NCBI GenBank assembly: GCA_031415235.1
Contig: JANORI010000531.1
Span: 1-36,117, forward strand
From: Acidobacteriota bacterium
GTDB taxonomy: Bacteria > Acidobacteriota > Vicinamibacteria > Vicinamibacterales > UBA2999
DNA length: 36,117 nt
Reading direction: 5' to 3'
The translations under genes were made by a program, and so were the position numbers. A model generated the notes under the pieces. That model was given only the letters and a program-made list of their open reading frames with translations, made no database searches and was not told the DNA's origin. How positions within the stretch are numbered: the first letter of the stretch is position 1; every line of letters begins with the position of its first letter. Shown here piece by piece: positions 3,272-29,493 of the stretch.

Positions 3272-3363
3272 CCTATGGTATCGTAATCATTGCGCCGTCG
3301 GCGGGAGGTCGCTGCACGATTCAGCCGGCGACGAGGTTCTCGCCGCCGCACGATGTCGCCACG

Positions 3364-6039
3364 GTGTGCGTGTCACGCACGCCTGCTGCACACCCGAGCG
3401 CACATGATCGCCAGCTGCCACAGTCCCGCGTTCCGCTGCCCAGTAGCGGCGGCGCACGTCCGCCGGTGACGGAGCCCGCCGTGCTGGGTCGTCTGACGGC
3501 GCGGCCCACCTCGGCCGCCCCGAGGCATGGGGAACCGATCACCGTCGGCGTGCCCCTGCCCCGCGGTCGGGTGCGCGATGTCGCCACCCTCGTGGCCGTC
3601 GTGGGCGAGGCGCTCCCGACGCAGGCCCGCGCACTCGAATATTGGACCGATGGCAGCGTGCGTTGGGCGCTACTCGACACGCGCGTCGACCTGCCGCCAG
3701 GCGGCGCCGAGATTCTCGTGCGCGACGATCTGCGGGCGCCTGCGCCGTCGCATCCGCTTACCCTCAGCCTGTCGGCGCGGCAGGCCTCGGTCACGAGCGG
3801 CTCATGGCGGGTCGATCTGGATCTGGACCGCGGCCATCCGTTTACGGCCGTGCTCGACCACGAGCGGCCGGTGATCGAGGCGCCGCTCGCGGCGGTGCTG
3901 CTGCGCGACGCCGACGGGCGCCCGTTGCCGGTGCGCTATTGCGCCATCGAGGTCGAGGTCACCGGCCCGCTGCGGGTGGTGCTGCGCATCGACGGGGAAG
4001 CGTCGGGCGCGCAGGGCGCGCGGCTCAACACGAGCCTGCGGCTCACGTTCGTGGCCGGGTTGCCGGCAATGGGCATTGAACTGCGCCTGCACAACCCGAG
4101 GGCCGCCGTGCATCCCGGTGGATTGTGGGAGCTGGGCGATGCCGGTTCAGTTCTTCTGCGCGACGCCGTCGTGCGCCTGCCGGTCACCGTCCCTCTTCAG
4201 ACGTGTCGCGTGTCGCTCGAGCGCGACGCGCCCCTGGCTGACGTCGGATTGCCGTTCTCGGTGACCCAGCACTCGAGCGGCGGCGAGCACTGGGCAAGTA
4301 CGGCGCACGCCAATCGCACCGGCGACGTCACCCTCGACCGCCGCGGCTACACCGCGCGGGCCGGCGCTGCCGACTCGGCCGGCCTACGCGCGAACCCGGT
4401 GGTGGTTGCCGGATTCCCAGGCGGCATGCTCTGCGTCGCGGCCGAACGCTTCTGGGAGGTGTTCCCCAAGGCGCTGGACGTGCGCGCCGATGGCGCGCTC
4501 ACGGTGTCGTGTCTGCCGGCGGGCCGTGATCCGCATGAACTCCAGGGCGGGGAGCGCTGCGACTACGAGTTCTGGATCGGGTGGGGCGCCGACGGCGTCA
4601 CCGACCTGCCACTCGAGTGGCGCCGTGCCCCGGCGACTGTCCTTCCGGAGGCGCAGGCGGTCGCCGTCGCCGAACTCCTTCCCGGTCTGGAGCCGGCTCG
4701 AGCCGGCGAGAATCCCGTGTACGAGCGCCTCATCGGGGCGGCCCTGGACGGCGCCGACACCTTTGTCGCCAAGCGCGAGCGCATCGACGAGTACGGCTGG
4801 CGGCACTACGGCGACCTGTATGCGGATCACGAGAACGGACCCGAGCCGGGCCGCCAGATCGTCTCGCACTACAACAATCAGTACGATGCGGTGCATGGTC
4901 TCGCGCTCCAGGCGTTGCGGCACGATGACCACCGCTGGTGGGAGTTGGCGCGCGACCTGGCGCGGCACGTCTCGCGCATCGACGTCTACTGGACGTCCGA
5001 GGATCGCGCGGCCTACAACGGCGGACTGTTCTGGCACACCGCGCACTACACCGCCGCCGGCCGGTCAACTCACCGGACGTATCCCAGGGACGCCGGGCTC
5101 GACGGCGGAGGGCCGTCGAATGAGCACTGCTATTCGCATGGCCTGCTGCTGCACCACGTCCTGACCGGCGACCCGACGAGCCGCGACGCGGTCGTGAGCC
5201 TGGCCAATTGGGTGATTGCGATGGACGACGGCCGCGCGGCGCGTTGGCCGCTGCCCTGGTTGAGCAGCGCCTCAACCGGCGCGGCAAGCGCGACGGCGAC
5301 GGGCGACTACCACGGTCCTGGTCGCGGATCCGCCAACACCGTCCTCGCGCTGTTGAACGCGCACCGGCTGACCGGCGATGAGCGCTATCTGGCCAAGGCC
5401 GACGAACTGGTCGCACGAGTCGTGCATCCTGACGACGACCTCGAGGCGCTCGTGCTGCTCGACACCGAGAGACGCTGGTCGTACACCGTACTGCTGCAGG
5501 CGCTCGGGCGATACCTGTTGACGCGTGTCGAACTGGGCCGTCGCGACGAGCGCTGGGACTACGCCCGCGCCGTCCTGCTGCACTACGCCGGATGGATGGC
5601 CGACCACGAGCATCTGTACTTGGAGAAGCCTGCCCATCTCGAGTTCCCCACCGAGACGTGGGCGGCGCAAGATGTCCGCAAAGCGGAGGTGTTCGACCTG
5701 GCTGCCATCCATGCCGCCACCGGCGCGGAGCGCGAGCGGTTTCTCGCCTGCGCCGTCGACTTCCACCGGCGGTCGCTCGCGATGCTGGCGTCGATGGCCA
5801 CCCGGACGCGCACCCGTCCGGTCGTGCTGCTGCTGTCGTACGGCTTCTCGAGGCCCTGGTTCGAGCGTCACGCGCGACTCGCGCCGCTCGACCCTCTGCC
5901 GCCGCGCGCGTGGCCGCCGCGCGCGGGGTTCGTGCCGCAGCGGACCGTCGCAGTGCGGCGCCTCGAGGCCGTCGCCGTCGCCGTCGCCGCCGCAGTGGCC
6001 GGGGCGGCCGCGCTCTTGCTGCGCCGGTTCCTCCTGTAG
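3364..6039 (+). CDS. Large PcRGLX/YetA-like (exo-rhamnogalacturonan-lyase family-like) protein with C-terminal hydrophobic tail
   Basis: The N-terminal motif GEPITVGVPLPRG...YWTDGSVRWALLD resembles the first domain of the PcRGLX/YetA family as I remember it. The middle region HYNNQYDAVHGLALQAL...GGLFWHTAHY suggests an alpha/alpha-barrel. The last 25 aa, AVAVAVAAAVAGAAALLLRRFLL, form a hydrophobic helix followed by Arg-Arg. The start is uncertain: GTG 3364, GTG 3466, or GTG 3481 (GGAG lies 6 nt upstream of 3481). No signal peptide is evident. Confidence 0.6.
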   Translation: MCVSRTPAAHPSAHDRQLPQSRVPLPSSGGARPPVTEPAVLGRLTARPTSAAPRHGEPITVGVPLPRGRVRDVATLVAVVGEALPTQARALEYWTDGSVRWALLDTRVDLPPGGAEILVRDDLRAPAPSHPLTLSLSARQASVTSGSWRVDLDLDRGHPFTAVLDHERPVIEAPLAAVLLRDADGRPLPVRYCAIEVEVTGPLRVVLRIDGEASGAQGARLNTSLRLTFVAGLPAMGIELRLHNPRAAVHPGGLWELGDAGSVLLRDAVVRLPVTVPLQTCRVSLERDAPLADVGLPFSVTQHSSGGEHWASTAHANRTGDVTLDRRGYTARAGAADSAGLRANPVVVAGFPGGMLCVAAERFWEVFPKALDVRADGALTVSCLPAGRDPHELQGGERCDYEFWIGWGADGVTDLPLEWRRAPATVLPEAQAVAVAELLPGLEPARAGENPVYERLIGAALDGADTFVAKRERIDEYGWRHYGDLYADHENGPEPGRQIVSHYNNQYDAVHGLALQALRHDDHRWWELARDLARHVSRIDVYWTSEDRAAYNGGLFWHTAHYTAAGRSTHRTYPRDAGLDGGGPSNEHCYSHGLLLHHVLTGDPTSRDAVVSLANWVIAMDDGRAARWPLPWLSSASTGAASATATGDYHGPGRGSANTVLALLNAHRLTGDERYLAKADELVARVVHPDDDLEALVLLDTERRWSYTVLLQALGRYLLTRVELGRRDERWDYARAVLLHYAGWMADHEHLYLEKPAHLEFPTETWAAQDVRKAEVFDLAAIHAATGAERERFLACAVDFHRRSLAMLASMATRTRTRPVVLLLSYGFSRPWFERHARLAPLDPLPPRAWPPRAGFVPQRTVAVRRLEAVAVAVAAAVAGAAALLLRRFLL

Positions 6040-7663: not shown

Positions 7664-8799
7664 GGCCGCCCCGCGTGCTGCAGGTCGTCCTGCAGCTGGA
7701 CCCTGGCGGCACTGAACGCCTTGTCATCGAGATGGTGCGGCGGTTGCACACACAGGTGTCGATGGCCGTCTGCTGCCTGGACGCGGCGGGCGCCTGGGCC
7801 GACCGCGTGACCGCTCTCGGCGTGCCCGTCCATGTGCTCGGCCGGCAGCCCGGCTTTCAGCCGCGCCTGTCGTTCGCGCTCGCCGCCATCGCCCGGCGCA
7901 TGCGTGCCGACGTGCTCCACTGCCATCACTACTCGCCGTTCGTGTACGGGCGGCTTGCCACGCTGATTGCCGGCGGCGCCCGGGCCATCTACACCGAGCA
8001 TGGCCGGCTTTCCGACGCGCCGCCGTCTCCCAAGCGCCGGATGGCCAACGCACTGCTGATGGCTGGCGCGCAGCAGCTGTTCTCGGTGTCGCACGACTTG
8101 CGGGCGCATCTGCTGAAGGAAGGCGTGCCGAGCCGGATGCAGGTCATCTGGAATGGGATTGACCCAGGGGAGCCGCCCACCGGGGCCGCCCGAGCGGCAG
8201 CCCGCGCCGCGCTCGGCGTGACCGACGAGGCCTGTGTCGTGGGCACGGTTGCGCGCCTCGACCCGGTCAAGGATCTCGGCACGCTCGTCACGGCGGTCGC
8301 CCAGGCCGGGCGGGTGAATCCCAGCGTGCGGCTCGTCGTCGTGGGCGACGGACCCGAGCGGGCCGCTCTCGAGCGCGCCGCGCACGCACACGGGGCCACG
8401 GGGCGCGTGCAGTTCCTGGGGCATCGTGACGACGCCCGGGCGATCCTCGCCGGCGTGGACGTCTTTGCCAACAGCTCCACGAGCGAGGGTATCTCACTGA
8501 CGCTGCTCGAAGCGATGGCGGCCGAACTGCCGATCGTGGCGACGAGCGTTGGGGGCACGCCCGAGGTGGTCGTCGACGGCGAGACCGGGCGCCTGGCACC
8601 CGCGCGCGATGCGGCCGGGTTGGCCGCGGCCTTGCTCGACGTCGCGGGGGACCCGGCTCGGGCTCGTGCCTGGGGCAGGGCCGGCCGCCAGCGACTGTTA
8701 CAGTACTTCACGATCGACGAGATGGTGCGCCGGTACGCGGCGGTGTACCGCGGCGAGTCCGAGGCTGGCGCTGACGACTCGTCGGCCCGGTTACAATGA
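7660..8799 (+). CDS. Glycosyltransferase, 'sugar transferase PEP-CTERM/EpsH1 system associated' (stp2-like, GT4)
   Basis: This is the C-terminal 379 codons of the 799-aa track ORF. It reads VRPPRVLQVVLQLDPGGTERLVIEMVRRL... with GT4 motif NSSTSEGISLTLLEAMAAELPIVATSVGGTPEVV. GTG 7660 overlaps the TGA at 7661-7663 of the ligase-like gene. GTG 7675 is an alternative start. Confidence 0.8.
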   Translation: MRPPRVLQVVLQLDPGGTERLVIEMVRRLHTQVSMAVCCLDAAGAWADRVTALGVPVHVLGRQPGFQPRLSFALAAIARRMRADVLHCHHYSPFVYGRLATLIAGGARAIYTEHGRLSDAPPSPKRRMANALLMAGAQQLFSVSHDLRAHLLKEGVPSRMQVIWNGIDPGEPPTGAARAAARAALGVTDEACVVGTVARLDPVKDLGTLVTAVAQAGRVNPSVRLVVVGDGPERAALERAAHAHGATGRVQFLGHRDDARAILAGVDVFANSSTSEGISLTLLEAMAAELPIVATSVGGTPEVVVDGETGRLAPARDAAGLAAALLDVAGDPARARAWGRAGRQRLLQYFTIDEMVRRYAAVYRGESEAGADDSSARLQ

Positions 8800-8840: not shown

Positions 8841-10751
<1,911 letters not shown>

Positions 10752-10773
10752 CCACACGATTACGAAACTGATC

Positions 10774-10820
10774 GCCGTACGCGCGTGGTTTCTCGCGCGC
10801 CTTGCACCGACGTGTACGGC
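10774..10820 (+). terminator. Possible stem-loop after the amidotransferase gene
   Basis: The inner stem is cgcgcg (10780-10785) with cgcgcg (10794-10799) around an 8-nt loop, tggtttct. The outer arms are gccgtac (10774-10780) and gtacggc (10814-10820). No U-tract follows. Confidence 0.3.
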
Positions 10821-10953
10821 GTCTGCCCGGCAGGTTCACTGACAGTCTCGTAAGTCCCAGGCCGAGATCGGCCGTGGCGCGTCCGCTGAGCGTGTGCCGC
10901 GTGAGTTGCGCAAGTGCGTGCGCGCGCAATGACTTAGCGGCCATTTCGCGAGA

Positions 10954-10970
10954 TGGGCATACCGCTTGCT
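10954..10970 (+). promoter_or_regulatory. Candidate sigma-54 (-24/-12) promoter for paralogue 1
   Basis: The site tgGGCAtaccgcTTGCt has GG at 10956-10957 and GC at 10968-10969, exactly 10 nt apart. It matches GGCA at -24 and TTGCT at -12. It lies 94 nt upstream of ATG 11063 in the correct orientation. Confidence 0.45.
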
Positions 10971-11062
10971 CCTACGGTGAGCACGTAAGGGAGTCATTGC
11001 CCAAGCAGTTCCCCCGACTGCACGTGGCTCACCGAACTCGAATCATCAGCATCGGGGACATC

Positions 11063-13411
11063 ATGCATTCACGGTCAGCCACCGCCCTTTTCGTCGCCTT
11101 CCTGAGTCTCGTGGCGGCATCTTCAGTGCCCGCACAGACGGCGCCGCAGCAGCTCCCGCTTGTGCAGGCCGGCAACTTTGCCTATCTAGGCAAGTTCACG
11201 CTGCCTTCGACCGACTCTGCCGGTGTGCAGACAACGTATGGGGGCAACGCTCTGGCCATGGGTCCCGACGGCACGTCGCTCTACTACGGCTGCGTCTACG
11301 GCGGTGCGGTGGTACGCGTGAGTATTCCCACGATTGGCGGCGTCGCGACGCAGGTCGAAGCCTGCCGCGGCGTGCCGAATCTGGGCGCGATCAACCCGAC
11401 CGACCCGAATGCGAAGCTGCTCGGTGGCGTGCTGGCGTGGAGCGGACGGCTGATCCTCTCGGGCTACTCCTACTACGACGGCAACAGCAGTGCCGTCGCG
11501 AGTCACTTTGCCGGCACCAGGATTGACACCGCGTCGGGCCCGTTCCGCGTGGGCACCGAGAAGCCCGGCTTGGTGGCCGGCTACATGGGCGTCATTCCGA
11601 GCGAATGGCGCACCCTGCTCGGCGGACCCGCGCTCACGGGTCAATGCTGTATCTCGATCGTCTCGCGCAGCAGCCATGGGCCAAGCGTGAGCGTGTTCGA
11701 CCCGGCACAGGTCGGTACGACGTCGACCGTCACCTCGACGATGCTCGTCGGCTATCCCGAAGCGCACACCAATCCTGTGCTTGGCAGCTACGGCGCGCCC
11801 GGCCCCATGTTCAGCGGCGCCACGAGGATGGGCGGCGTGGCCTTCCCGGCCGGGACGCGGTCGGTGCTGTTTGTCGGGCGCCACGGCACCACCTACTGCT
11901 ACGGCGAAGGCACATCGAATCAGGCGCTCGACCGCCAGCCGGTGCCAGGGCAGACCGGCGTCATCTACTGCTACGACCCGACCGACTCGAACAAGGGCAC
12001 GCACGGCTATCCCTACAAACATATGGCGTGGGCCTACGACGCCGTCGACCTGCTGGCCGTGAAGCAGGGACTCAAGAACCCCTGGGACATCGTGCCGTAT
12101 GCGACGTGGACGCTGCCCGAGGTGACTGGGGGTAACGGCACGGCTTCCATTCGCGGCGTCACCTACGACCCGGCGACGCGCCGCCTATACCTCACGCAGG
12201 ACCTTGGCGGGCGCACGCCTGAAGTGCACGTCTATGAGATCACCAATGCGGTACTGCAGGGCCCCACCCCCGAAATCTGCGGCGACGGGATCGACAACGA
12301 CCTCGATGGTCTGATTGACGAAGGCTGCGGGTCCGTGCCGGTCGACGAAGTGTGCGGCGACGGCCTCGACAACGATGGCGACGGTCTCATCGACGAGGGC
12401 TGCGCCGAGCTGACCGGCGAGGTGTGCGGTGATCTGATCGACAACGACGGCGACGGCCTGATCGACGAGAACTGCGAGCAGGCCAAGGTGGAAATCTGCG
12501 GCGACAACATCGACAACGACGGCGACGGCCTGGTCGACGAAGGGTGTGTCACGGAAACGGCGCCGCCCGGCGTGCCCGTGGGGGTCCGGGGAACGGTGAA
12601 GCAGGCGACAGTGTCACTCCGTTGGTCGCCGCCGCTGACCGGCGGCGTCGCGACCAGCTACGTCGTCGAGGCCGGAGTGGCGCCGGGGCAGACGGTGTAC
12701 TCGACGCCGGTCGGGCTCGTGACGGCGGTGTCGGTGCCAAACGTCGGCATCGGCAAGTACTACGTGCGGGTGAGAGCGAAGAACGCCAATGGCACGAGTG
12801 CGGCCTCGAAGGAAGTGGTCGTGTCGGTGGGTTGCACGACCAAGCCGCGCAGCGTGTCCGGGCTGTCTGCAACGTCCTTGGGCGGACTCGTGAATCTGAC
12901 CTGGTCCGACGCCGATGGCTGCAGCGGCTCGACCTACTCGGTGGCGCTCGGCACGACGCAGGGCGCAAGCGATGTGCGGACACTGACGGCGGCCGAGACG
13001 ACGACGTCGACCCAACTGCCGCAGGGCACCTACTTTGCGCGTGTGACGGTGTTGTCGGATGTCGGACTGAGCGAGACCACCGACCTTCGCTTCGACGTGG
13101 GCGGCAATACGTGTGTGACGCCGCGCTTTCGCACCAAGCTCAAGTCGGTGGTGAGCGGCCGGCGCGTGAGCCTGGGGTGGACGCCGCTCGACCCCGACAC
13201 GGCCAACGCGGATGACCAACTGGCGCCCGTGAGCTACCTCATCGAAGCAGGCTCGGTGTCGGGTGCGGCCAACTTCGGAAAGGCCTCAATGGAGCGCAGA
13301 GGGTCATTCCTGAACAACGTGCCTCCCGGGGTCTATTTCGTCCGGGTCCGTCCGATGAACGGCTGCGGCGTGGGCCGCGCCTCGAACGAAGTCAAGGTGC
13401 AGGTCCGGTAG
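11063..13411 (+). CDS. Secreted multidomain protein, paralogue 1: signal peptide, unknown 370-aa Cys-containing domain, 4 Cys/Asp-rich repeats, 3 FN3-like modules
   Basis: ATG 11063 has GGGGA 5 nt upstream. The signal peptide is MHSRSATALFVAFLSLVAASSVPA followed by QTA. The FN3-like ends read YYVRVRAKNANGTSAASKEV, YFARVTVLSDVGLSE and YFVRVRPMNGCGVGRASNEV. The upstream 87 codons of the track ORF cover the promoter region and were dropped. Confidence 0.85.
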   Translation: MHSRSATALFVAFLSLVAASSVPAQTAPQQLPLVQAGNFAYLGKFTLPSTDSAGVQTTYGGNALAMGPDGTSLYYGCVYGGAVVRVSIPTIGGVATQVEACRGVPNLGAINPTDPNAKLLGGVLAWSGRLILSGYSYYDGNSSAVASHFAGTRIDTASGPFRVGTEKPGLVAGYMGVIPSEWRTLLGGPALTGQCCISIVSRSSHGPSVSVFDPAQVGTTSTVTSTMLVGYPEAHTNPVLGSYGAPGPMFSGATRMGGVAFPAGTRSVLFVGRHGTTYCYGEGTSNQALDRQPVPGQTGVIYCYDPTDSNKGTHGYPYKHMAWAYDAVDLLAVKQGLKNPWDIVPYATWTLPEVTGGNGTASIRGVTYDPATRRLYLTQDLGGRTPEVHVYEITNAVLQGPTPEICGDGIDNDLDGLIDEGCGSVPVDEVCGDGLDNDGDGLIDEGCAELTGEVCGDLIDNDGDGLIDENCEQAKVEICGDNIDNDGDGLVDEGCVTETAPPGVPVGVRGTVKQATVSLRWSPPLTGGVATSYVVEAGVAPGQTVYSTPVGLVTAVSVPNVGIGKYYVRVRAKNANGTSAASKEVVVSVGCTTKPRSVSGLSATSLGGLVNLTWSDADGCSGSTYSVALGTTQGASDVRTLTAAETTTSTQLPQGTYFARVTVLSDVGLSETTDLRFDVGGNTCVTPRFRTKLKSVVSGRRVSLGWTPLDPDTANADDQLAPVSYLIEAGSVSGAANFGKASMERRGSFLNNVPPGVYFVRVRPMNGCGVGRASNEVKVQVR
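12275..12547 (+). repeat. Four tandem coding repeats (about 72-75 nt each) encoding CGDGxDNDxDGLIDEGC modules
   Basis: The repeats are ICGDGIDNDLDGLIDEGC, VCGDGLDNDGDGLIDEGC, VCGDLIDNDGDGLIDENC and ICGDNIDNDGDGLVDEGC. They resemble the Cys-flanked Asp-rich putative metal (Ca/Cu)-binding motif, MopE-like or thrombospondin-type-3-like. They are absent from paralogue 2. Confidence 0.9.
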
Positions 13412-13447
13412 CGCCGGAGCGTCGGACCCACGCCATACGAGCAGATT

Positions 13448-13490
13448 TCGACCGCTGCTGTCTAGATTTGAAACGGACAGTAGCGGTCGA
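13448..13490 (+). terminator. 15-bp stem / 13-nt loop inverted repeat between the paralogues (a terminator, or an upstream activator site)
   Basis: The arms are tcgaccgctgctgtc (13448-13462) and gacagtagcggtcga (13476-13490). All positions pair, with one G-U. It lies 37 nt after stop 13411. The trailing ctcctttcc is only a weak U-tract. Confidence 0.5.
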
Positions 13491-13505
13491 CTCCTTTCCG
13501 CCAGG

Positions 13506-13542
13506 CGAAAAAACACGAAAACAGTCCGAAAACACCGAAAAA
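13506..13542. promoter_or_regulatory. Four helically phased A-tracts (CGAAAA repeats), predicted intrinsic DNA bend
   Basis: A-tracts sit at 13508-13513, 13518-21, 13529-32 and 13538-42. Their starts are spaced 10, 11 and 9 bp apart, and each follows CG. This is a conspicuous AT island in very GC-rich DNA, between the inverted repeat and the candidate -24/-12 element. Confidence 0.5.
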
Positions 13543-13567
13543 GGCGCGCAGTCACTCAGGGCCTATT

Positions 13568-13584
13568 TCGGCCCCTCTTTTGCT
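13568..13584 (+). promoter_or_regulatory. Candidate sigma-54 (-24/-12) promoter for paralogue 2
   Basis: The site tcGGCcCctcttTTGCt has GG at 13570-13571 and GC at 13582-13583, exactly 10 nt apart. The -12 element TTGCT is perfect and the -24 element is partial (GGC.C). It lies 58 nt upstream of ATG 13642. Confidence 0.4.
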
Positions 13585-13641
13585 GTGCAGACGCAGGGCT
13601 TGCACCTCAAAGCCACATCGCCGACCATTTGGAGCCCCTGC

Positions 13642-15672
13642 ATGCTATTGCGCCGTTTCATCGCCTTCGCCCTCGCCGCCTCCTTCCTGACGTCAGCAGC
13701 GACGGCGATAGCCCAGACCGCGCAACAGCAGCCTCTCGTGCAGGCCGCCAACCTGGTCTATCGGGGAAAGTTCACCCTGCCGAGCGCCGACTCCGCCGGC
13801 ATCCCGATCAGCTACGGCGGCGACTCGTTGGGCATGGGCGCCGACGGCGTGTCGCTCTACTTCGGCTGCGTCTACGGCGGCAGTGTGGCGCGCGTGAGCA
13901 TTCCGGTTATCGGGGGGGTCGCGTCCTTGATCGAGCCGTGCCACGGCGTGCCGAACCTGAATGCGATCAACCCCTCGGACCCGAACGCCAAGCTGCTCGG
14001 CGGCGTGCTGGCGTGGAATGGCCGGTTGATCGTCTCGGGGTATTCCTACTATGACGGCACCCAAAGCGCCGTGGCCAGCCACTTCGTCGGTTCCACGATT
14101 GCCGGTGCCTCGGGCCCATATCGCGTGGGCACCGACAAGGTGGGCTTCGTCGCAGGCTACATGGGCGTCATCCCTGCCGAATGGCGCGGACTGCTCGGTG
14201 GCCCCTCGCTCACCGGTCAGTGCTGTCTCTCAGTCATCTCGCGCACGAGCTACGGCCCGAGCGTCAGCGTGTTCGACCCGGCGCAGCTGGGCGTGACCAC
14301 GGTGGCCTCGAAGATGCTCGTCGGGTACCCGCAATCGAATCCCTCGCTCGGCAATTACGGCGTCCACAACCCCCTGTTCAGCGGCGCGACACAGATCGGC
14401 GGCGTGGCCTTTCCTGGCGGCACGCGCTCGGTACTGTTCGTGGGCCGCCACGGCACGACCTACTGCTACGGCGAAGGCACGTCCACGCAGTCGCTGCACA
14501 ACACGCCCGTGCCCGGCACTGGCGGCGCGTTTGTCTATTGCTACGACCCAACCGATCCATACAAAGGCACCCACGGCTATCCCTACCAGCACATGGTGTG
14601 GGCCTACGACGCCGTCGAACTGCTGGCCGTGAAGCAGGGCCTCAAGAATCCGTGGGATGTTCTGCCCTACGCGACGTGGACGCTGGGCGAGATGAGTGGC
14701 GGCAGCGGTGCCGCAACCCTGCGCAGCGCCACCTACGACCCGGCGACGCGGCGTTGGTACATGGTACAGGGCGGCGGCTCAGGCGCGCCGACCGTGCACG
14801 TATACGAGGTGACGAACGCGGTACACGGCCCTCAGGGCCTCACCGTGCAGACGAGCACGCTCGGCCTCACGTTCTCGTGGAACGCGCCCCCGCAGCCCGG
14901 CTACAGCAGTTACAGTCTCGAAGCCGGAACGCTACCTGGCTCCGCCAACATCGGCGCGCTCTCGCTGGCCGCAGGCTCCAGAACCGTGTCTCTGCCGCCC
15001 ACCGGCGCAACCGGCACATTCTATATCCGGTTGAAGGCGCTCTATCCTGACGGGGCCGAAGGCATCTCGAACGAAGTGTCACTCACGCTCGGCGCGACCG
15101 GCACGCCGCAGCCGCCAGCAAATTTTCGCGCGACGGCGAGCGGCACGAACATCGTGTTCTCGTGGGACGTGACCAACGATCCGCTGGTCACCGGCGTCGT
15201 GGCGGATGCCGGTACGGCCCCTGGCCTGTCCAACCTCGCGCAGGGCGCGCCCATCGGCAATAGCGGCAGCTACGTTGCAGCCAACGCGCCGCCCGGGCAC
15301 TACTACTTTCGTTTGAGGGCCGTGGGCCAGACGGGCTCGAGCGCGCAGTCGAACGAAGCCGAGATCACCATCGGCGGCGGTGGAGGGGCGGCTGGTGCCC
15401 CGTTGCCACCGACGCTCATGCCGCCGATCGTCACCGCATCGCGGACGGCCACCCTCAGCTGGGACATCAACAGCGCTGGGCCTGATCCCAGCAGCTTCCT
15501 GCTCGAAGTGGGCTCACAACCGAGCCGCGCTGATCTCGGCACCGTGTCGCTGAGCGGCGAGCGCTTCGTGGCGCCGGGCGTGCCCTCGGGCGTCTACTTC
15601 GTGCGCGTGCGTTCGGCCAACAGTGCCGGAACGAGCGCGCCCAGCAACGAAATTCGCCTCGTCGTACCGTAG
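13642..15672 (+). CDS. Secreted multidomain protein, paralogue 2: signal peptide, the same unknown 370-aa domain, 3 FN3-like modules
   Basis: ATG 13642 has GGAG 8 nt upstream. The signal peptide is MLLRRFIAFALAASFLTSAATAIA followed by QTA. The N-domain is collinear with paralogue 1. The FN3-like ends read FYIRLKALYPDGAEGISNEV, YYFRLRAVGQTGSSAQSNEA and YFVRVRSANSAGTSAPSNEI. Confidence 0.85.
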   Translation: MLLRRFIAFALAASFLTSAATAIAQTAQQQPLVQAANLVYRGKFTLPSADSAGIPISYGGDSLGMGADGVSLYFGCVYGGSVARVSIPVIGGVASLIEPCHGVPNLNAINPSDPNAKLLGGVLAWNGRLIVSGYSYYDGTQSAVASHFVGSTIAGASGPYRVGTDKVGFVAGYMGVIPAEWRGLLGGPSLTGQCCLSVISRTSYGPSVSVFDPAQLGVTTVASKMLVGYPQSNPSLGNYGVHNPLFSGATQIGGVAFPGGTRSVLFVGRHGTTYCYGEGTSTQSLHNTPVPGTGGAFVYCYDPTDPYKGTHGYPYQHMVWAYDAVELLAVKQGLKNPWDVLPYATWTLGEMSGGSGAATLRSATYDPATRRWYMVQGGGSGAPTVHVYEVTNAVHGPQGLTVQTSTLGLTFSWNAPPQPGYSSYSLEAGTLPGSANIGALSLAAGSRTVSLPPTGATGTFYIRLKALYPDGAEGISNEVSLTLGATGTPQPPANFRATASGTNIVFSWDVTNDPLVTGVVADAGTAPGLSNLAQGAPIGNSGSYVAANAPPGHYYFRLRAVGQTGSSAQSNEAEITIGGGGGAAGAPLPPTLMPPIVTASRTATLSWDINSAGPDPSSFLLEVGSQPSRADLGTVSLSGERFVAPGVPSGVYFVRVRSANSAGTSAPSNEIRLVVP

Positions 15673-15715
15673 TCGCGTCACACCCTGGCGCTCCCTGGGG
15701 CGATGACGTCTGGCG

Positions 15716-16765
15716 TCAGGGGATGAACCTGACGATGCGCGGCCCGAGTACGTTGGCGACCGCCATCGGCAGCCGCTGCCACGCCTGAATCGCGAACCGG
15801 AACTTCGGATTCTTCGGGCTCTGATCCGGCAACGCGCCTGACGCCACGTCGTATTCCCAACAGAGCGGCGAAGGCAGCGCGCCCCACTGCTTCTTGAAGT
15901 GGAACGTGCCCTCGTCTGGCGTGGAGCGTCCGAAATCCATGACGGCGCTGCGGTCGGCGATCGCCTGCTTCAGGACCGTCCAGTACAGCAGGTTGTTGGG
16001 CGACAGCGCGTTGAATTCGCGCAGCGACGATGCCCACGGTATCTCGGTGCGGGTGCGCCACCGCCACGTGAGGCCCGCCGCCACGGGGGCGCCGCCGTGC
16101 CGCACCACGATGACCCGCGCACGCTCGGGGAACGCATCGAGTACGGCCTCGAAGAGTCGCGGCGAGTAGACCGGCGTGCCCAGGTCGCGCATGTTGCGGC
16201 AGAACACCTGGTAGAACTCGCCGACCAGGGCGCGTCCTCCCACTTCGGTCGTCAGCTCGCTCTTCTCGGCCTTGCGTACCTGGTTGCGAACCTTGCGATC
16301 GAGCGCCGCCCATAGCGTATCGGCGTCGGCGGGCAGCGCCAGCGTCATCGCGACCTTGTGTGCCTTGGGGGCCAGCTGCGGGAACCGGCGACGGTCGTGC
16401 CGCAGTTCGAGATGCGAGGCGCCCTGTTCGCGTGTGTAGGCGCCGGCATGTTCAACCAGACGGGTCGCCGTTTCTTCGTCGTCGGCCACGACCCCGCCGT
16501 AGTTCACAAACGGCAGCGACACCACGAAGCGTCCGAACACCCGCGATGTGAAGAGCACCAGGGGCAGCACGCCCACGACTTGTCCGTCACGCACCGCCGC
16601 CGCGTAATACGTTCGGTGCCCAAAGACCTGCTCGAAGATCGCACGCCAGCGCCAGAGGTGATAGCCGCAGGCGCCGGGATGCACGGTCACGTACGCATTC
16701 CACGCGGCCTCGTCCTGGCAGGACACGACCGTGAGGGGCTCCCGCGTGCGAGCACCGTGTGCCAT
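15716..16765 (-). CDS. FemAB-related (GNAT-fold peptidyl/aminoacyl transferase-like) protein, PEP-CTERM-locus type
   Basis: ATG 16765 lies 15 nt after the deacetylase stop. The 349-aa size, the position as last gene of the operon and the sequence (...SLPFVNYGGVV...FYQVFCRNMRDLGTPVY...FHFKKQWGA) fit the FemAB-like family of these loci. The upstream 94 codons of the track ORF overlap the deacetylase gene. Confidence 0.7.
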   Translation of the reverse strand: MAHGARTREPLTVVSCQDEAAWNAYVTVHPGACGYHLWRWRAIFEQVFGHRTYYAAAVRDGQVVGVLPLVLFTSRVFGRFVVSLPFVNYGGVVADDEETATRLVEHAGAYTREQGASHLELRHDRRRFPQLAPKAHKVAMTLALPADADTLWAALDRKVRNQVRKAEKSELTTEVGGRALVGEFYQVFCRNMRDLGTPVYSPRLFEAVLDAFPERARVIVVRHGGAPVAAGLTWRWRTRTEIPWASSLREFNALSPNNLLYWTVLKQAIADRSAVMDFGRSTPDEGTFHFKKQWGALPSPLCWEYDVASGALPDQSPKNPKFRFAIQAWQRLPMAVANVLGPRIVRFIP

Positions 16766-22627: not shown

Positions 22628-23917
22628 TTACGGTCGTCTACTGAACGGGCTGACGCCGAGCGACAATCCGGCCCGCACGCCGTGGCGTCCAAACGTTCCG
22701 GTAGGGTACCCCGACAGCGCGCCGCTGTCGCCGAAGGTGGACCGGAAGAGGTTGTACTCGATGAACACGCCGGCCATTCGCTTGATGTCGTACCGCATCT
22801 GCACGGTCCCCGACGCCGAGTCGAACTCCTGAGGTGTTGGCGCGACGTTGATGCGTCCCGACGAGTAGTTGGCGCTCGCCGAGGTGCCGAGGCGCGAGGC
22901 GATCTGTCCGCCGATCAACGCCGACACGCCGGAGAGAACGACGGCACTTCGATACGCTTGTACGAATCGCGCATCGCGCGTCGCTGCCAGCTGGACAGCC
23001 CAGCTCCGGCTCACTCGGTGGTCCAGCGTGGCGGACCCGATCGCCTGGAACTCAGAGCGGCCGATGCTCGGCACCGTGGCGAGGCCGACCTGCATGCCGA
23101 TGGTCGTGTCGCGTGACAACCGGAACCCGCGCGAGTCCGAGAAATCGAAGCCGAGTTCGAACCCACCGATTCGGCCGGTGGATCCCGGAATGGCGCCTTG
23201 CGCCGGGACCCGCAATGCGAACGAGTTGTAGCCTGCGTAAACGCCGAGACCGCGCGTGATGCTGCGCGAAAGGCGCAGCCGGCCGTCGTAGCGTTCCCCG
23301 CGCGGCACGGTCGAGTTCAACTGGACCTGGGTGCCGACAGTGCCCTCGATGGACGCCTGCGTGCGGCGTGTAATCGAGTACGACAGCAGCGCCGATGAGA
23401 CCACGTCGACCTGGCGTATCGTGGAGATCTGGAAGTTGGGCGACGAGGCCAGGGCCGTGGTGCCCAGACTGTTGAAGGCGGTTGCATTTGCCGCGGTCGG
23501 GCCGGCAAAGAACGAGGCTGCCGACAGGGGCGCGTATTGCGCGAACTGGACCAGGCTCCATCGCCAGCGTCCCCGACTCACCGAAGCCAGTGACAGCGAC
23601 GCTCCATACGACGGCGCCGTTGACGGCGTGAAGTCGGGATAATACCGATTCGCCGCCGTCGCGGTTGTCGCAATCGTGACGCGACGCCCAGGACGGTTGT
23701 AGCTGAGGTTCACGTCCCCACCGCCGAACGCCTGGCCGGTGGGCTGGAAGGCGGCGAGGGCGTTGGTGGCAAAGAGCGGCCAGTCGTATCCGCCATAGAT
23801 GGCACCCGTGGCGCGCAGGCCAGGTGCCGGGAGCCGCGCGGTCTGCGCCACGGCGTCGACGGCCGCCAGGCCGCATCCGACCAGCGCCAGGCACACCATT
23901 CCGCGGGGGAACGTCAT
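22628..23917 (-). CDS. Predicted outer-membrane beta-barrel protein of unknown function (PEP-CTERM-locus 'hypo_1'-like)
   Basis: The signal peptide is MTFPRGMVCLALVGCGLAAVDAVAQ. Alternating amphipathic Gly/Ser/Tyr-rich strands run throughout. ATG 23917 overlaps the upstream TGA (ATGA). Confidence 0.65.
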   Translation of the reverse strand: MTFPRGMVCLALVGCGLAAVDAVAQTARLPAPGLRATGAIYGGYDWPLFATNALAAFQPTGQAFGGGDVNLSYNRPGRRVTIATTATAANRYYPDFTPSTAPSYGASLSLASVSRGRWRWSLVQFAQYAPLSAASFFAGPTAANATAFNSLGTTALASSPNFQISTIRQVDVVSSALLSYSITRRTQASIEGTVGTQVQLNSTVPRGERYDGRLRLSRSITRGLGVYAGYNSFALRVPAQGAIPGSTGRIGGFELGFDFSDSRGFRLSRDTTIGMQVGLATVPSIGRSEFQAIGSATLDHRVSRSWAVQLAATRDARFVQAYRSAVVLSGVSALIGGQIASRLGTSASANYSSGRINVAPTPQEFDSASGTVQMRYDIKRMAGVFIEYNLFRSTFGDSGALSGYPTGTFGRHGVRAGLSLGVSPFSRRP

Positions 23918-24551
23918 GGGATGATCACCGTGTCCCCTGGACGGAGCAGGACGTTCTGCTCCATCTTGCGCCCACGGGCTACTTCCTTGAAGTTGAACGG
24001 CAGGCGTACCGTCTTGCCGTTGGTCGTGCGCAGAACGCTGATGTCCTTGACGTCGGCGAAGGCCGTGGGCCCTCCGGCAGCGGCGAGCAGCTGCAGCACG
24101 GTCGTCGGTGCGGTCAAGGGGTAGGTCCCGGGCTTCACCACCTCGCCCGTCACGTACACCTTGCGGCTGTTGATGGTGGTGACGATCACGGTCACGCTGG
24201 GCGACTCGACGAACTTGGTCACGGCGGTTGAGACGCGCTCGCGGAACTGCTCCACCGAGAGGCCGCCGGCCTGTACGTCGTTCAGCAGCGGCAGCGAGAC
24301 CATGCCGTCGGGCCGCACCATGACCTGGGCCGAGAGGTCCTTTTCCCGCCAGACGATGACGTCGAGCACGTCTTCGGCGCCGATCACGTAGTCGGGCGGC
24401 GGCGTGACGCCTTCAGGCACGACTGGCGGTGCCGGCGGCTTCTGGGCGGCCGTCGTCGCGGGTGCCGGCTGCCGGGGCACCGGTGCGCTGCTCGACTGTG
24501 CCGACAGGGACACCGACGTGCACAGCGACAGGATCGCGAACATTGGGGCCG

Positions 24552-24555
<4 letters not shown>
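23914..24555 (-). CDS. Polysaccharide export protein (Wza/EpsA-like, Poly_export + SLBB)
   Basis: The sequence DYVIGAEDVLDVIVWREKDLSAQVMVRPDGMVSLPLLNDVQAGGLSVEQF is the classic Poly_export motif. The signal peptide is MTAPMFAILSLCTSVSLSAQ. ATG 24555 overlaps the TGA of the activator gene (ATGA). Confidence 0.85.
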
Positions 24556-25622
<1,067 letters not shown>

Positions 25623-25716
25623 CTGTCGTCCTCGTATCGGCCCTGTGACCAGAGTCTCATATTGGAGAATTCTGGGTTGCTTGGCCTGCGCCAGCTTGTA
25701 AAATGTCGGGCCCGGC

Positions 25717-28841: not shown

Positions 28842-28875
28842 TCGACCACTCCCTTCCGCCCGAATGACGTCGTGG

Positions 28876-29457: not shown

Positions 29458-29493
29458 CTCAGGGGAGGCCCCGCAATCTTACTGCAACTGGCC

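What the first reader, a model, noticed from the sequence alone, without database searches (positions are those of the whole stretch)
11063..15672. Tandem paralogous secreted proteins sharing an uncharacterised 370-aa Cys-containing domain inside an EPS island
Two adjacent same-strand genes encode proteins with 24-aa signal peptides that both precede QTA.

Their N-terminal domains are collinear (nt 11135-12253 and 13714-14823). By eye, roughly three quarters of residues are identical, with long identical runs: GCVYGG, NPxDPNAKLLGGVLAW, SGYSYYDG, VAGYMGVIPxEW, LTGQCC, GPSVSVFDPAQ, RSVLFVGRHGTTYCYGEGTS, YCYDPTD, KGTHGYPY, LLAVKQGLKNPWD and VHVYExTNAV.

I cannot assign this domain to any family I know. 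The conserved Cys pairs and Gly/Tyr/Trp-rich strands suggest a disulfide-stabilised beta-rich extracellular fold, possibly propeller-like or lyase/hydrolase-like.

Both proteins then carry three FN3-like modules with the signature Y[FY]xR[VL]R...G.S..SNE. Neither has a PEP-CTERM or other recognisable anchor.

They sit between the biosynthetic and export halves of the EPS locus and have their own candidate sigma-54 promoters. This suggests matrix proteins or EPS-processing enzymes co-regulated with the polymer.
Basis: partly seen in the sequence, partly recalled or inferred. Interest (0 to 1): 0.72.

Follow-up and report, generated by a model that had tools for sequence, protein, structure and literature searches.

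The report
Unclassified secreted beta-propeller pair in EPS locus
Two neighbouring genes inside a polysaccharide (slime) gene cluster encode secreted proteins built on a widespread but so far unnamed six-blade-like beta-propeller domain that most likely cuts or grips extracellular sugar polymers; the function is untested.

Summary
P1 (11063-13411) and P2 (13642-15672) are tandem same-strand genes. Each has a 24-aa signal peptide and a collinear ~370-aa N-domain, 72% identical between the two.

That domain has no match in Pfam, NCBIfam, PHROGs or PDB sequences. AlphaFold2 folds it with high confidence (pLDDT 92.6) as a beta-propeller, with only generic structural neighbours (TM below 0.5).

The family is large, about 2,000 clusters at 50% identity. 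It spans more than 10 phyla, including CPR and DPANN lineages and uncultivated phages, and is annotated "hypothetical" throughout.

Both tails are three true FN3 domains.

The surrounding locus is an XrtA/PEP-CTERM-type EPS cluster, but the window holds no exosortase gene and no PEP-CTERM tail. Both genes carry -24/-12 sigma-54 elements conserved in position in related genomes.

About 20 of 76 homologous loci lie in such EPS clusters, in at least five lineages, including cultured Pelobacter propionicus (Ppro_2452). The rest are scattered.

Relatives are fused to CBM6, PA14, dockerin, GH16, beta-helix and BNR modules.

Best reading: a glycan-directed exoprotein, probably an EPS-processing enzyme. 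The rival is a non-catalytic matrix lectin or scaffold. This is a new family of a known kind, of moderate interest.

The parts
10926..10938 (+). Conserved box GCAATGACTTAGC about 17 nt upstream of the P1 -24 element. It may be a site for the activator or a DNA-bending protein.
   Evidence: GCAAT.ACTTAGC is invariant in the five aligned upstream regions: window, L003, L006, L007 and L008. Its function is inferred only.
10955..10970 (+). Sigma-54 type -24/-12 promoter element of P1 (GGGCATACCGCTTGCT; GG-N10-GC).
   Evidence: Found. The same element, GGGCAC-N5-TTGCT, lies 175-185 nt before the domain start in L003, L006, L007 and L008 and forms an invariant island in the alignment. No sigma-70-like site was found in 10700-15800.
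11063..13411 (+). Gene P1, 782 aa: signal peptide, beta-propeller, four acidic Cys repeats, three FN3 domains.
   Evidence: The ATG follows a conserved CGGGGA Shine-Dalgarno-like motif.
11063..11134 (+). P1 signal peptide, 24 aa, cleavage predicted at VPA|QTA.
   Evidence: Read from the translation. No signal-peptide predictor was available.
11135..12253 (+). P1 N-domain, an unclassified beta-propeller of about 373 aa.
   Evidence: AF2 pLDDT 92.6, pTM 0.92. Foldseek returns only beta-propellers, TM 0.3-0.47. No Pfam, NCBIfam or PDB match.
12278..12547 (+). Four acidic double-disulfide repeats (CGDGxDNDGDGLIDEGC) containing DxDxDG Ca-loop-like motifs.
   Evidence: NF033662 scores 62.3 bits against a cut-off of 41, in 4 stretches; PF11617 scores 25.3 bits. 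TRF reports period 72 x 3.7 copies at 12271-12540. Copy number is 2-9 in orthologues.
12575..13408 (+). P1 tail: three FN3-like modules.
   Evidence: Pfam fn3 matches aa 509-586 at the cut-off. The tail aligns at 28% identity over three modules with the P2 tail, which was modelled as three FN3 domains.
13448..13490 (+). 16-bp hairpin 37 nt after the P1 stop codon; a probable terminator or 3' stabiliser that separates the two transcription units.
   Evidence: Free energy -28.9 kcal/mol, z-score -5.9. One arm is conserved in all five aligned orthologous loci and both arms are visible in two of them, L005 and L007. It lacks a clear U-tract.
13569..13584 (+). Sigma-54 type -24/-12 promoter element of P2 (CGGCCCCTCTTTTGCT).
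   Evidence: Found. GGC-N8-TGC is invariant at the same position in L003, L005, L006, L007 and L008.
13642..15672 (+). Gene P2, 676 aa: signal peptide, beta-propeller, three FN3 domains.
13714..14823 (+). P2 N-domain, the same beta-propeller family, 72% identical to the P1 domain.
   Evidence: It keeps all 27 invariant columns of alignment A1.
14824..15669 (+). P2 tail: three FN3 domains.
   Evidence: AF2 pLDDT 89.4, showing three seven-stranded sandwiches. Top Foldseek hits are triple-FN3 fragments of contactins, neogenin and fibronectin, E about 1e-14.

Best explanation
P1 and P2 are Sec-exported modular exoproteins.

**Architecture.** The working part of each is a previously unclassified, non-repetitive, probably six-bladed beta-propeller. 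It is held on a stalk of three FN3 domains. P1 additionally carries four disulfide-clamped, Ca-loop-like acidic repeats.

**Expression.** Each gene is its own transcription unit, driven by a sigma-54 promoter. They are therefore presumably switched on by an enhancer-binding protein together with the XrtA-type EPS genes that surround them.

**Proposed function.** I commit to the propeller being a glycan-active catalytic module, a depolymerase, lyase or hydrolase type of enzyme. It would have a single site on one face of the propeller and would trim or remodel the polysaccharide made by the locus, or a common sugar motif in it.

**What is shown and what is inferred.**
- Shown: the gene structure, the fold class, the FN3 and acidic-repeat modules, the type of locus, the conserved promoter elements, and the family's distribution and fusion partners.
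- Inferred: export beyond the periplasm, the substrate, and catalysis itself.
For: **Fold.** The AF2 model is high-confidence. All Foldseek neighbours are beta-propellers, and the top ones are six-bladed enzymes such as sGDH, LRE/SMP30, Drp35 and strictosidine synthase, plus GH43-like and PL42 enzymes.

**Single-site character.**
- There is no blade-to-blade sequence repeat; the highest hhalign probability is 22%.
- Polar and aromatic residues are invariant or nearly so: Y114, H124, S180, Y256, D281, Y294, D302 are invariant, and D115, R178, H290 are nearly invariant. Most of these are kept down to about 30% identity across phyla.
- This suggests one conserved site rather than multivalent lectin sites. 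It also argues against ligand-specific binding to EPS structures that vary between organisms.

**Architectures.** Most of the roughly 2,000 clusters are stand-alone proteins of about 400 aa, or the propeller joined to Ig/FN3 spacers. Appended modules are those typical of carbohydrate-active enzymes: CBM6, PA14, Laminin_G_3, CHB_HEX_C and dockerin.

**Genomic context.**
- The window locus is XrtA/PEP-CTERM type. TIGR03087, 03019, 03006, 03013 and 03007 score above their cut-offs.
- About 20 of 76 homologous loci carry such genes within 10 kb. They include Steroidobacteraceae, Nitrospirota and cultured Pelobacter propionicus. In P. propionicus, Ppro_2452 ends a GT/Wzx/Wzy operon about 7 kb from the exosortase EpsH and EpsI genes.
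- Another conserved acidobacterial locus places a tandem pair next to GT2, HEAT and a GGDEF response regulator.

**Phage copies.** Relatives occur on uncultivated viral contigs, next to portal or virion protein genes. Some are fused to GH16 or beta-helix domains.

**Promoters.** Both -24/-12 elements are conserved in position.
Against: - No catalytic residues are identified, and no known enzyme family matches by sequence or by close structure (TM below 0.5).
- I could not inspect the model coordinates. The clustering of invariant residues on one face is inferred only from strand order.
- Some relatives carry the propeller N-terminal to a domain that is itself likely catalytic: GH16, beta-helix, BNR/Asp-box or CotH. 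That arrangement fits a targeting or binding role equally well.
- More than half of the homologous loci show no EPS genes nearby.
- FN3 stalks and Ca-binding repeats are also typical of structural matrix proteins.
- The locus already encodes a PcRGLX-like (PL26-like) candidate lyase.
Confidence: 0.42

Rival explanations
1. The proteins are non-catalytic matrix proteins. The propeller would be a lectin-like module that binds the EPS. The FN3 stalk and the Ca-binding repeats would space and cross-link polymer and cells. This would be functionally analogous to Vibrio cholerae RbmC/Bap1 and RbmA, which are encoded between the vps-I and vps-II clusters.
For: - A paralogue pair lies inside the EPS locus, between the biosynthesis and export genes.
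- Each protein has three FN3 domains, and P1 has DxDxDG-type acidic repeats.
- Regulation resembles that described for PEP-CTERM matrix proteins: single-gene units, long upstream regions and a sigma-54 motif (PMC1569441).
- In some relatives the propeller sits N-terminal to catalytic domains such as GH16, beta-helix and BNR, as a targeting module would.
- The invariant set is rich in aromatic residues.
Against: - There are no per-blade repeats or repeated binding motifs, and no FG-GAP/VCBS or lectin Pfam hits at E <= 1.
- The same polar residues are invariant from Acidobacteriota to CPR bacteria and phages, even though the EPS structures must differ.
- Partner modules such as CBM6, PA14 and dockerin are themselves binding or anchoring modules, and these usually decorate enzymes.
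- The RbmC/Bap1 comparison rests on my own knowledge and was not tested here.
Confidence: 0.3
2. The proteins are general secreted or periplasmic propeller enzymes unrelated to the local EPS. They might scavenge foreign polymers or act on the cell wall, and would sit in this island only through local history in Vicinamibacterales-like genomes.
For: - Most homologous loci have heterogeneous neighbours with no recurrent partner. Examples are L002, L079 and L102.
- The family is expanded to 3-6 genes per genome in these Acidobacteriota.
- It occurs in CPR and DPANN genomes that lack such EPS loci.
- Two members are fused to PG_binding_1.
Against: - Insertion into exosortase-type EPS clusters recurs independently in at least five lineages, including Pelobacter at 36% identity.
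- The two-gene arrangement and its promoters are conserved.
- Expression is sigma-54 dependent, in a locus that encodes a sigma-54 activator.
Confidence: 0.15
3. The proteins are periplasmic accessory parts of the polymerisation and export machinery, acting as a scaffold or chaperone for the nascent chain. They would stand in for functions elsewhere linked to the exosortase, which is absent from this window.
For: - The proteins carry only a Sec signal and no recognisable outer-membrane sorting signal.
- They occupy a position next to the Wzy-like and AsnB-like genes in several lineages.
- No exosortase gene was found among the window ORFs scanned against Pfam and NCBIfam.
Against: - Homologues on phage contigs, dockerin, CBM and PA14 fusions, and stand-alone copies far from any EPS genes all argue against a machine-bound role.
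- In Pelobacter the family co-occurs with EpsH and EpsI rather than replacing them.
Confidence: 0.08

Closest known systems
Six-bladed beta-propeller enzymes: soluble PQQ sugar dehydrogenase (3das), SMP30/LRE/Drp35 lactonases (5d9b, 2dg0, 2p4o), strictosidine synthase (6zea)
   Same: These are the best Foldseek matches, at probability 1.0. The all-beta, roughly 24-strand topology is compatible with six four-stranded blades closed by the N-terminal strand. Conserved Asp and His residues could form a central site.
   Different: TM-scores are only 0.37-0.48 and identity is 8-13%. There is no Pfam hit to GSDH, SGL or Str_synth at E <= 1. The blade number could not be verified, and there is no evidence for a cofactor or metal.
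Beta-propeller carbohydrate-active enzymes: GH43-like BACOVA_02161 and BACOVA_03624 (4onz, 3qc2), PL42 L-Rha-alpha-1,4-GlcA lyase (7esl); also phage endosialidase-type tailspikes (the last from my own knowledge)
   Same: Both are secreted propeller modules combined with CBM, Ig or FN3 modules. Both include virion-associated relatives, and both have glycan-related gene neighbourhoods.
   Different: Structural similarity is only generic (TM 0.30-0.47). No sequence or profile match was found. dbCAN/CAZy HMMs were not available.
PEP-CTERM proteins of XrtA/EpsH systems (Haft et al. 2006, PMC1569441)
   Same: Both are encoded in or near XrtA-type EPS loci, as single-gene units with upstream regions longer than 200 nt that carry a -24/-12 sigma-54 motif.
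   Different: Neither P1 nor P2, nor any of the 252 relatives then on hand, has a PEP-CTERM tail. No exosortase gene was found among the window ORFs scanned. The proteobacterial activator motif described in that paper was not compared.
Vibrio cholerae matrix proteins RbmC/Bap1 (beta-propeller plus beta-prism) and RbmA (tandem FN3), encoded between vps-I and vps-II (from my own knowledge)
   Same: In both cases a secreted paralogue pair with a beta-propeller, together with FN3 modules, is encoded inside the EPS gene region and co-regulated with the polymer.
   Different: RbmC/Bap1 propellers are eight-bladed, repeat-based (FG-GAP/VCBS-like) and bind calcium. Here there are no blade repeats and no such Pfam hits. 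No homology was detected, so the resemblance is organisational only.
NF033662 acidic double-disulfide repeat, PF11617 MopE-type motif, and thrombospondin type-3-like DxDxDG repeats
   Same: P1 aa 406-495 matches NF033662 above its cut-off, with four copies.
   Different: This applies to P1 and its positional orthologues only; P2 lacks the repeats. Ca or metal binding is inferred from the motif and was not tested.

Membership tests
Beta-propeller fold | An all-beta toroid of four-stranded blades, with structural matches dominated by propellers | tested here: met
   The AF2 model has pLDDT 92.6 and pTM 0.92, with about 23 strands. Foldseek returns 84 PDB hits at E <= 1e-3 and the 50 listed, apart from two plexin sema domains, are beta-propellers; 37 BFVD hits reach the same threshold. 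The blade number, probably six, is inferred from strand count only.
Any curated protein family (Pfam-A 2025, NCBIfam 20.0, PHROGs v4) covering the N-domain | An HMM match over residues 25-397 | tested here: not met
   No family matches at E <= 1 for P1, P2 or the 51 relatives of A1. Viral relatives have no PHROG over the propeller.
Relative of a solved structure (PDB, by sequence) | A phmmer or hmmsearch hit | tested here: not met
   No hits were found with profile A1. With profile A2 and with single sequences only spurious hits appeared, at E >= 0.1.
CAZy glycoside hydrolase or polysaccharide lyase family | A match to a CAZy family model, or identified catalytic residues | not testable with these tools
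   No dbCAN/CAZy library was available. Pfam GH and PL models do not hit. Only generic fold similarity to GH43-like and PL42 structures was found.
Fibronectin type III domain (PF00041) | An HMM score at or above the gathering cut-off, or a seven-stranded FN3 sandwich fold | tested here: met
   By sequence, P1 scores 25.0 against a cut-off of 25, and P2 scores 19.6, below it. By structure, the P2 tail is three sandwiches at pLDDT 89, and the top Foldseek hits are triple-FN3 fragments at E about 1e-14.
NF033662 acidic double-disulfide repeat | An HMM score above 41 bits, with repeated CGDGxDNDGDGxxDEGC units | tested here: met
   P1 scores 62.3 bits over four stretches. P2 has none.
PEP-CTERM protein (TIGR02595/PF07589) | A C-terminal PEP motif, followed by a hydrophobic helix and a basic cluster | tested here: not met
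   The C-termini read ...ASNEVKVQVR and ...SNEIRLVVP. None of the 252 relatives then on hand has such a tail, and no PEP-CTERM ORF exists in the window.
XrtA/PEP-CTERM-type EPS locus (context) | Presence of the XrtA-associated marker families | tested here: met
   TIGR03087, TIGR03019, TIGR03006, TIGR03013 and TIGR03007 score above their cut-offs. TIGR03097, 03108, 03018 and 03015 are best hits but below their cut-offs.
XrtA/PEP-CTERM-type EPS locus (context) | An exosortase (EpsH/XrtA) gene within the locus | tested here: not met
   No exosortase hit was found among the window ORFs scanned. The gene may lie outside the 36-kb window. It is present next to the Pelobacter homologue.
Sigma-54 dependent promoter | A GG-N10-GC (-24/-12) element upstream of the gene, conserved in orthologues | tested here: met
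   Elements lie at 10955-10970 and 13569-13584. They are conserved in position in L003 and L005-L008. The window-wide count of matches equals chance (14 found, 13.8 expected), so the support comes from position and conservation. The transcription start was not tested.
RbmC/Bap1-type matrix propeller | FG-GAP/VCBS repeat propeller plus a beta-prism lectin domain | tested here: not met
   No such Pfam hits were found, and there are no blade repeats. A direct structural comparison was not possible.

The most novel reading that the evidence does not exclude
The propeller would be the founding member of a new carbohydrate-active enzyme family, a new GH or PL class. Bacteria with exosortase-type and c-di-GMP-linked EPS systems would use it to remodel their own matrix. 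CPR and DPANN symbionts and phages, where it appears as a virion-associated module, would use it to breach the surface glycans of other cells. The tandem P1/P2 pair, kept alike by gene conversion, would be two differently anchored versions of the same activity, one with and one without the Ca-binding repeats.
Probability: 0.3. Interest if true: 0.65.

Novelty: new variant of a known kind. Interest (0 to 1): 0.45.

Why it matters
XrtA/PEP-CTERM EPS loci are common in soil, sediment and activated-sludge bacteria, yet their extracellular protein partners are poorly known. This finding defines a large, unnamed protein family of about 2,000 clusters at 50% identity. It spans many phyla and uncultivated phages, has a confident fold, and shows a repeated though not exclusive link to such loci.

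If the propeller is an enzyme, it is a new polysaccharide-processing family. That would matter for biofilm and floc biology and could provide a depolymerase tool. If it is a binder, it is a new matrix scaffold.

A cultured carrier, Pelobacter propionicus DSM 2379 (gene Ppro_2452), makes the question testable at the bench.

Tried and rejected
**Sequence and profile searches that found nothing**
- Pfam, NCBIfam and PHROGs searches of the N-domain, including 51 relatives scanned at E <= 1, gave nothing. The weak Glu_cyclase_2 hits (2 of 51 relatives, E about 0.1) are noise.
- PDB sequence searches with single sequences, two profiles and divergent viral members gave nothing.
- tblastn against GenBank phages and PLSDB plasmids gave no match.
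- Exact look-up of P2 in the assembly index found no record.
- A literature search for Ppro_2452 returned no paper. A search for XrtA, PEP-CTERM, exopolysaccharide and propeller returned 12 papers, none clearly relevant by title or abstract; only one (PMC10599522) was opened, and it was irrelevant.

**Structure searches**
- Foldseek against PDB and BFVD returned only generic propellers. I do not assign the domain to sGDH/SGL, GH43, PL42 or WD40.

**Ideas considered and dropped**
- BNR/sialidase relationship: rejected. The Asp-boxes in relatives lie in a separate C-terminal domain, at aa 517-736 of the 794-aa L001 protein.
- Blade-repeat or multivalent-lectin idea: not supported by hhalign between blades.
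- TIGR04183 T9SS tail hit in P1 (E 8e-4): it is below the cut-off and internal to an FN3 module, so it was rejected.
- Sigma-54 promoter upstream of Ppro_2452: none is present. An extended -10 sigma-70-like TGCTATAAT is there instead.
- The window-wide count of sigma-54-like matches is at chance level. Only position and conservation support the two sites.
Full report
**1. Observation.**
P1 runs 11063-13411 (782 aa) and P2 runs 13642-15672 (676 aa), both on the + strand.

- Both have the codon-position GC pattern of coding sequence, with GC3 about 0.8.
- Both start with a 24-residue signal peptide, ending VPA|QTA in P1 and AIA|QTA in P2.
- BLASTP of P1 against P2 gives 582 bits.

Between the N-domain and the FN3 tail, P1 has four acidic double-disulfide repeats of the form CGDGxDNDGDGLIDEGC (aa 406-495, nt 12278-12547). 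They match NF033662 at 62.3 bits against a cut-off of 41, and also match PF11617. At the DNA level they form a 72-bp tandem repeat. P2 has none.

**2. The N-domain.**

*Sequence searches.*
- No Pfam or NCBIfam family matches at E <= 1, either for the two proteins or for the 51 relatives tested.
- PDB sequences give nothing, even with profiles.
- PHROGs has no family covering it.

*Fold.*
- AlphaFold2, run with a 51-sequence alignment, gives a confident model with pLDDT 92.6 and pTM 0.92. It has about 23 beta-strands and only short helices.
- Foldseek against PDB and BFVD returns essentially only beta-propellers, at probability 1.0 but with TM-scores of 0.3-0.47 and 8-13% identity.
- The best matches are six-bladed enzymes: a PQQ sugar dehydrogenase (3das), luciferin-regenerating enzyme and other SMP30-type lactonases, Drp35, and strictosidine synthase. 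GH43-like proteins, the PL42 lyase 7esl, WD40 proteins and phage tail proteins also appear.
- The fold class is therefore settled, but there is no close structural relative.
- From the strand order I infer six four-stranded blades, closed by the N-terminal strand.

*Conserved residues.*
- The putative blades share no detectable sequence repeat; the highest hhalign probability is 22%.
- The invariant columns include many polar and aromatic residues: Y114, H124, W158, S180, Y207, C255, Y256, D281, Y294, Y301 and D302. D115, R178, R242, R249, H290, D305 and D345 are nearly invariant.
- S180, Y256, D281, H290 and Y294 stay invariant in a set of 50 representatives that are only 28-43% identical to the first sequence of that alignment.
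- By the usual propeller topology, most of the polar ones lie on B-C or D-A loops of four successive blades, which would put them on one face. This is inference, because I had no access to the coordinates.

*Cysteines.*
- The C255/C279 pair is conserved across the family.
- The vicinal C171-C172 pair and the C52/C76 pair are clade-specific. Pelobacter has GNGC in place of GQCC and lacks the first pair.

**3. The tails.**
The P2 tail (aa 395-676) models as three seven-stranded sandwiches at pLDDT 89. Its best PDB matches are three-FN3 fragments of contactins, neogenin and fibronectin, at E about 1e-14. The P1 tail aligns with it module for module. Neither protein ends in a PEP-CTERM signal or any other recognisable sorting signal. 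None of the 252 relatives then on hand does either.

**4. The family.**

*Size and annotation.*
- An exhaustive HMMER search of 1.84 billion cluster representatives finds 2,006 clusters at E <= 1e-3, of which 892 reach E <= 1e-30.
- The names the sources give are "hypothetical" or "uncharacterized", apart from two labels that describe only the appended Ig domains.

*Distribution.*
- Genomes carrying it include Acidobacteriota (mostly Vicinamibacterales), Chloroflexota, Myxococcota, Steroidobacteraceae, Nitrospirota, Elusimicrobia, Bacillota and Bdellovibrionales.
- It also occurs in CPR bacteria (Saccharibacteria, Giovannonibacteria) and a Woesearchaeota archaeon.

*Architectures.*
- Many members are stand-alone proteins of about 400 aa.
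- Among 50 multi-domain representatives, the common partners are fn3, Big_7, Big_13 and PKD.
- Less common partners are Laminin_G_3, CBM6, PA14, PG_binding_1, Beta_helix, BNR_2 and CotH.
- One member carries a dockerin.
- The BNR signal comes from a separate C-terminal Asp-box domain, not from this propeller.

*Phage copies.*
- Twenty-one IMG/VR viral contigs encode relatives.
- Some of these contigs are clearly phage. Portal genes lie nearby in L096 and L098, an internal-virion-protein gene lies directly upstream in L089, and a virion structural gene lies downstream in L083.
- Viral copies are fused to GH16 (L083), Beta_helix (L090 and L091), CHB_HEX_C (L098) or fn3 (L094).
- Cultured-phage and plasmid collections have none.

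**5. Context in the window.**
The surrounding genes form an XrtA/PEP-CTERM-type EPS cluster.

| Gene or family | Score versus cut-off |
|---|---|
| stp1 glycosyltransferase (TIGR03087) | above |
| FemAB-like (TIGR03019) | above |
| XrtA-system deacetylase (TIGR03006) | above |
| EpsB-type priming transferase (TIGR03013) | above |
| chain-length determinant (TIGR03007) | above |
| amidotransferase, O-ligase-like Wzy, tyrosine kinase, ATPase | best hits, below cut-off |

- A Wza-like export gene lies at 23914-24582 and a signal-peptide-bearing outer-membrane-type ORF at 22628-23917. Both are identified by reading the translations only.
- A sigma-54 activator gene lies at 24552-25730.
- No exosortase gene was found among the window ORFs scanned, and the window contains no PEP-CTERM ORF.

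**6. Promoters.**
A relaxed sigma-54 consensus matches the window no more often than chance, 14 matches against 13.8 expected. Two of the matches, however, lie in the correct orientation in the two upstream regions: 10955-10970 (GGGCATACCGCTTGCT) and 13569-13584 (CGGCCCCTCTTTTGCT).

- In related genomes the same element lies at the same distance before the domain start (four for P1, five for P2). Examples are GGGCACACCACTTGCT for P1-type genes and CGGCACCGTCTTTGCT or CGGCCCGAAGTTTGCT for P2-type genes.
- In otherwise diverged intergenic DNA these elements form invariant islands.
- A conserved GCAAT.ACTTAGC box lies about 17 nt upstream of the P1 element.
- A strong hairpin follows the P1 stop codon (-28.9 kcal/mol, z -5.9). 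One arm is conserved in all five aligned orthologous loci, and both arms are visible in two of them.
- No sigma-70-like site was found in the region.

The two genes are therefore most likely separate sigma-54-dependent units. This matches what Haft et al. reported for PEP-CTERM genes: single-gene operons, long upstream regions and a -24/-12 motif (PMC1569441). The difference is that these proteins lack the PEP-CTERM tail.

**7. Linkage test.**
I ran tblastn with the window's EPS proteins against 76 homologous loci, each with 10-kb flanks.

*Loci with XrtA-type EPS genes.*
- About 20 loci carry them.
- Six are syntenic acidobacterial loci (L003, L005-L008, L015).
- The others come from further Acidobacteriota, Steroidobacteraceae/Acidibacter (L053, L060, L073) and Nitrospirota (L055, L074).
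- Independently, the cultured Pelobacter propionicus DSM 2379 homologue Ppro_2452 is 36% identical, E 1e-61. It ends a GT4/Wzx/GT2/GT4/transglutaminase/Wzy_C/acetyltransferase/GT4 operon, about 7 kb from Exosortase_EpsH and EpsI.

*A second conserved acidobacterial locus.*
- Here a tandem pair of family members sits beside GT2, HEAT and a GGDEF response regulator.
- One member of that pair also carries an acidic repeat and a BNR domain.
- A Chloroflexia copy overlaps a TPR-GGDEF gene.

*The remaining loci.*
- Of the remaining roughly 49 loci, the immediate neighbours in the 38 that could be scored are heterogeneous. Among 115 neighbouring ORFs, the most frequent families occur only two or three times.
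- Examples are given.

Linkage to EPS loci is therefore strongly enriched and has arisen repeatedly, but it is not a defining property of the family.

**8. Evolution of the pair.**
The arrangement is conserved in L003 and L005-L008: a first gene with 2-9 acidic repeats, followed by a second gene without them.

| Comparison of N-domains or flanking genes | Identity |
|---|---|
| Two paralogues within L003 | 90% |
| Two paralogues within L007 or L008 | 76-79% |
| Window P1 vs P2 | 72% |
| Window vs its positional orthologues in L003 | 66-74% |
| Flanking AsnB-like and priming-transferase genes, window vs L003 | 93% |

The pattern indicates concerted evolution (gene conversion) restricted to the propeller, on top of fairly fast divergence.

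**9. Interpretation.**

*What is firm.*
- These are Sec-exported modular proteins.
- Their core is a new family of beta-propeller.
- They are co-located, and probably co-regulated, with an XrtA-type EPS system.
- The family as a whole keeps carbohydrate-related company.

*Why I favour a catalytic role (0.42).*
- The module usually stands alone or with spacers and CBM-like partners.
- It has one non-repetitive, deeply conserved set of Asp, His, Arg, Ser and Tyr residues across phyla whose glycans must differ.
- Its nearest fold neighbours are enzymes.

*The main rival (0.30).*
- This is a non-catalytic EPS-binding matrix scaffold, analogous to V. cholerae RbmC/Bap1 and RbmA.
- It is supported by the FN3 stalk, the Ca-loop repeats, and the fusions in which the propeller precedes a known catalytic domain.

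*Lesser rivals.* These are an EPS-unrelated secreted enzyme (0.15) and a periplasmic machinery accessory (0.08).

**10. Novelty and score.**
The fold, the modular layout and the locus type are all familiar. The family itself is unnamed and has no characterised or structurally solved member, and its recurrent association with exosortase-type loci and with phage virion genes has not, to my knowledge, been described. I rate it a new variant of a known kind, with interest 0.45.

Noticed in passing
window 11135-12253 vs 13714-14823; L003, L007, L008: The propeller domains of the two paralogues within one genome are more alike than positional orthologues between genomes: 90% in L003 and 76-79% in L007/L008, against 66-74% between the window and L003. 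The distinct tails and promoters stay orthologous. This indicates gene conversion confined to the N-domain.
   Followed up: partly
window 12278-12547; orthologues in L003, L005-L008: The acidic double-disulfide repeat array varies from 2 to 9 copies among positional orthologues of P1. At the DNA level it is a 72-bp tandem repeat, so it may expand and contract. It also creates a spurious antisense ORF at 12232-12552.
   Followed up: partly
window 3250-6036 (+): A 929-aa protein has PcRGLX-like (PL26-type rhamnogalacturonan lyase-like) N-terminal and central domains. It co-occurs with the propeller genes in about 11 related loci, so the EPS cluster already has a candidate lyase.
   Followed up: partly
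window 24552-25730 (-): The locus's sigma-54 activator is only 392 aa. It matches PrsR/NtrC models from about profile position 130 onwards, so it appears to lack the receiver domain. It would then be an unusual activator, not controlled by phosphorylation.
   Followed up: no
window 1-36117: The locus has a nearly complete set of XrtA-associated marker genes, yet no exosortase (EpsH/XrtA), EpsI or PEP-CTERM ORF was found in the window. P1 and P2 lie directly downstream of the FemAB-like gene, on the opposite, convergent strand.
   Followed up: partly
window 22628-23917 (-) and 23914-24582 (-): A 429-aa protein with a signal peptide and outer-membrane-barrel-like composition had no Pfam or NCBIfam hit when scanned as part of a longer stop-to-stop frame (22631-24412). 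Directly upstream of it on the - strand (higher coordinates) is a 222-aa Wza-like export protein. That protein was recognised only by reading its sequence and was never scanned against a library.
   Followed up: no
window 7670-8796 (+): An additional GT4 glycosyltransferase (best hit TIGR03088 stp2, E 5e-69) lies between the Wzy-like gene and the AsnB-like gene. It was hidden inside a long stop-to-stop frame.
   Followed up: partly
window 25965-29478 (-): A Ser/Thr kinase with about 8 TPR units (1010 aa) and a PF07638-type ECF sigma factor lie directly beside the EPS cluster. They may form a second regulatory layer.
   Followed up: no
L083, L089, L090, L096, L098 (IMG/VR contigs): Relatives of the propeller occur on uncultivated phage contigs next to portal or virion protein genes. 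They are fused to GH16, beta-helix or CHB_HEX_C domains. The propeller family itself is absent from PHROGs v4.
   Followed up: partly
L101 10001-11620 (Pelobacter propionicus DSM 2379, CP000482, Ppro_2452): This is a cultured, fully sequenced carrier of the family. The gene lies in an AT-rich EPS operon about 7 kb from the exosortase EpsH and EpsI genes. It is preceded by an extended -10 (TGCTATAAT) rather than a sigma-54 element. No paper mentions it.
   Followed up: partly
L001 11341-13725 (same contig as L004): A 794-aa protein combines this propeller, one acidic repeat and a C-terminal Asp-box (BNR) domain. It lies in tandem with a 447-aa family member. Upstream, on the opposite strand, is a GT2-HEAT-GGDEF response-regulator set that is conserved in 5 related genomes.
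   Followed up: partly
window 13548-13560 (+): GCAGTCACTCAGG lies 8 nt upstream of the P2 -24 element. It loosely resembles the conserved GCAATGACTTAGC box upstream of P1, with 3 mismatches. That is at chance level across the window, and the sequence is not conserved in orthologues.
   Followed up: partly
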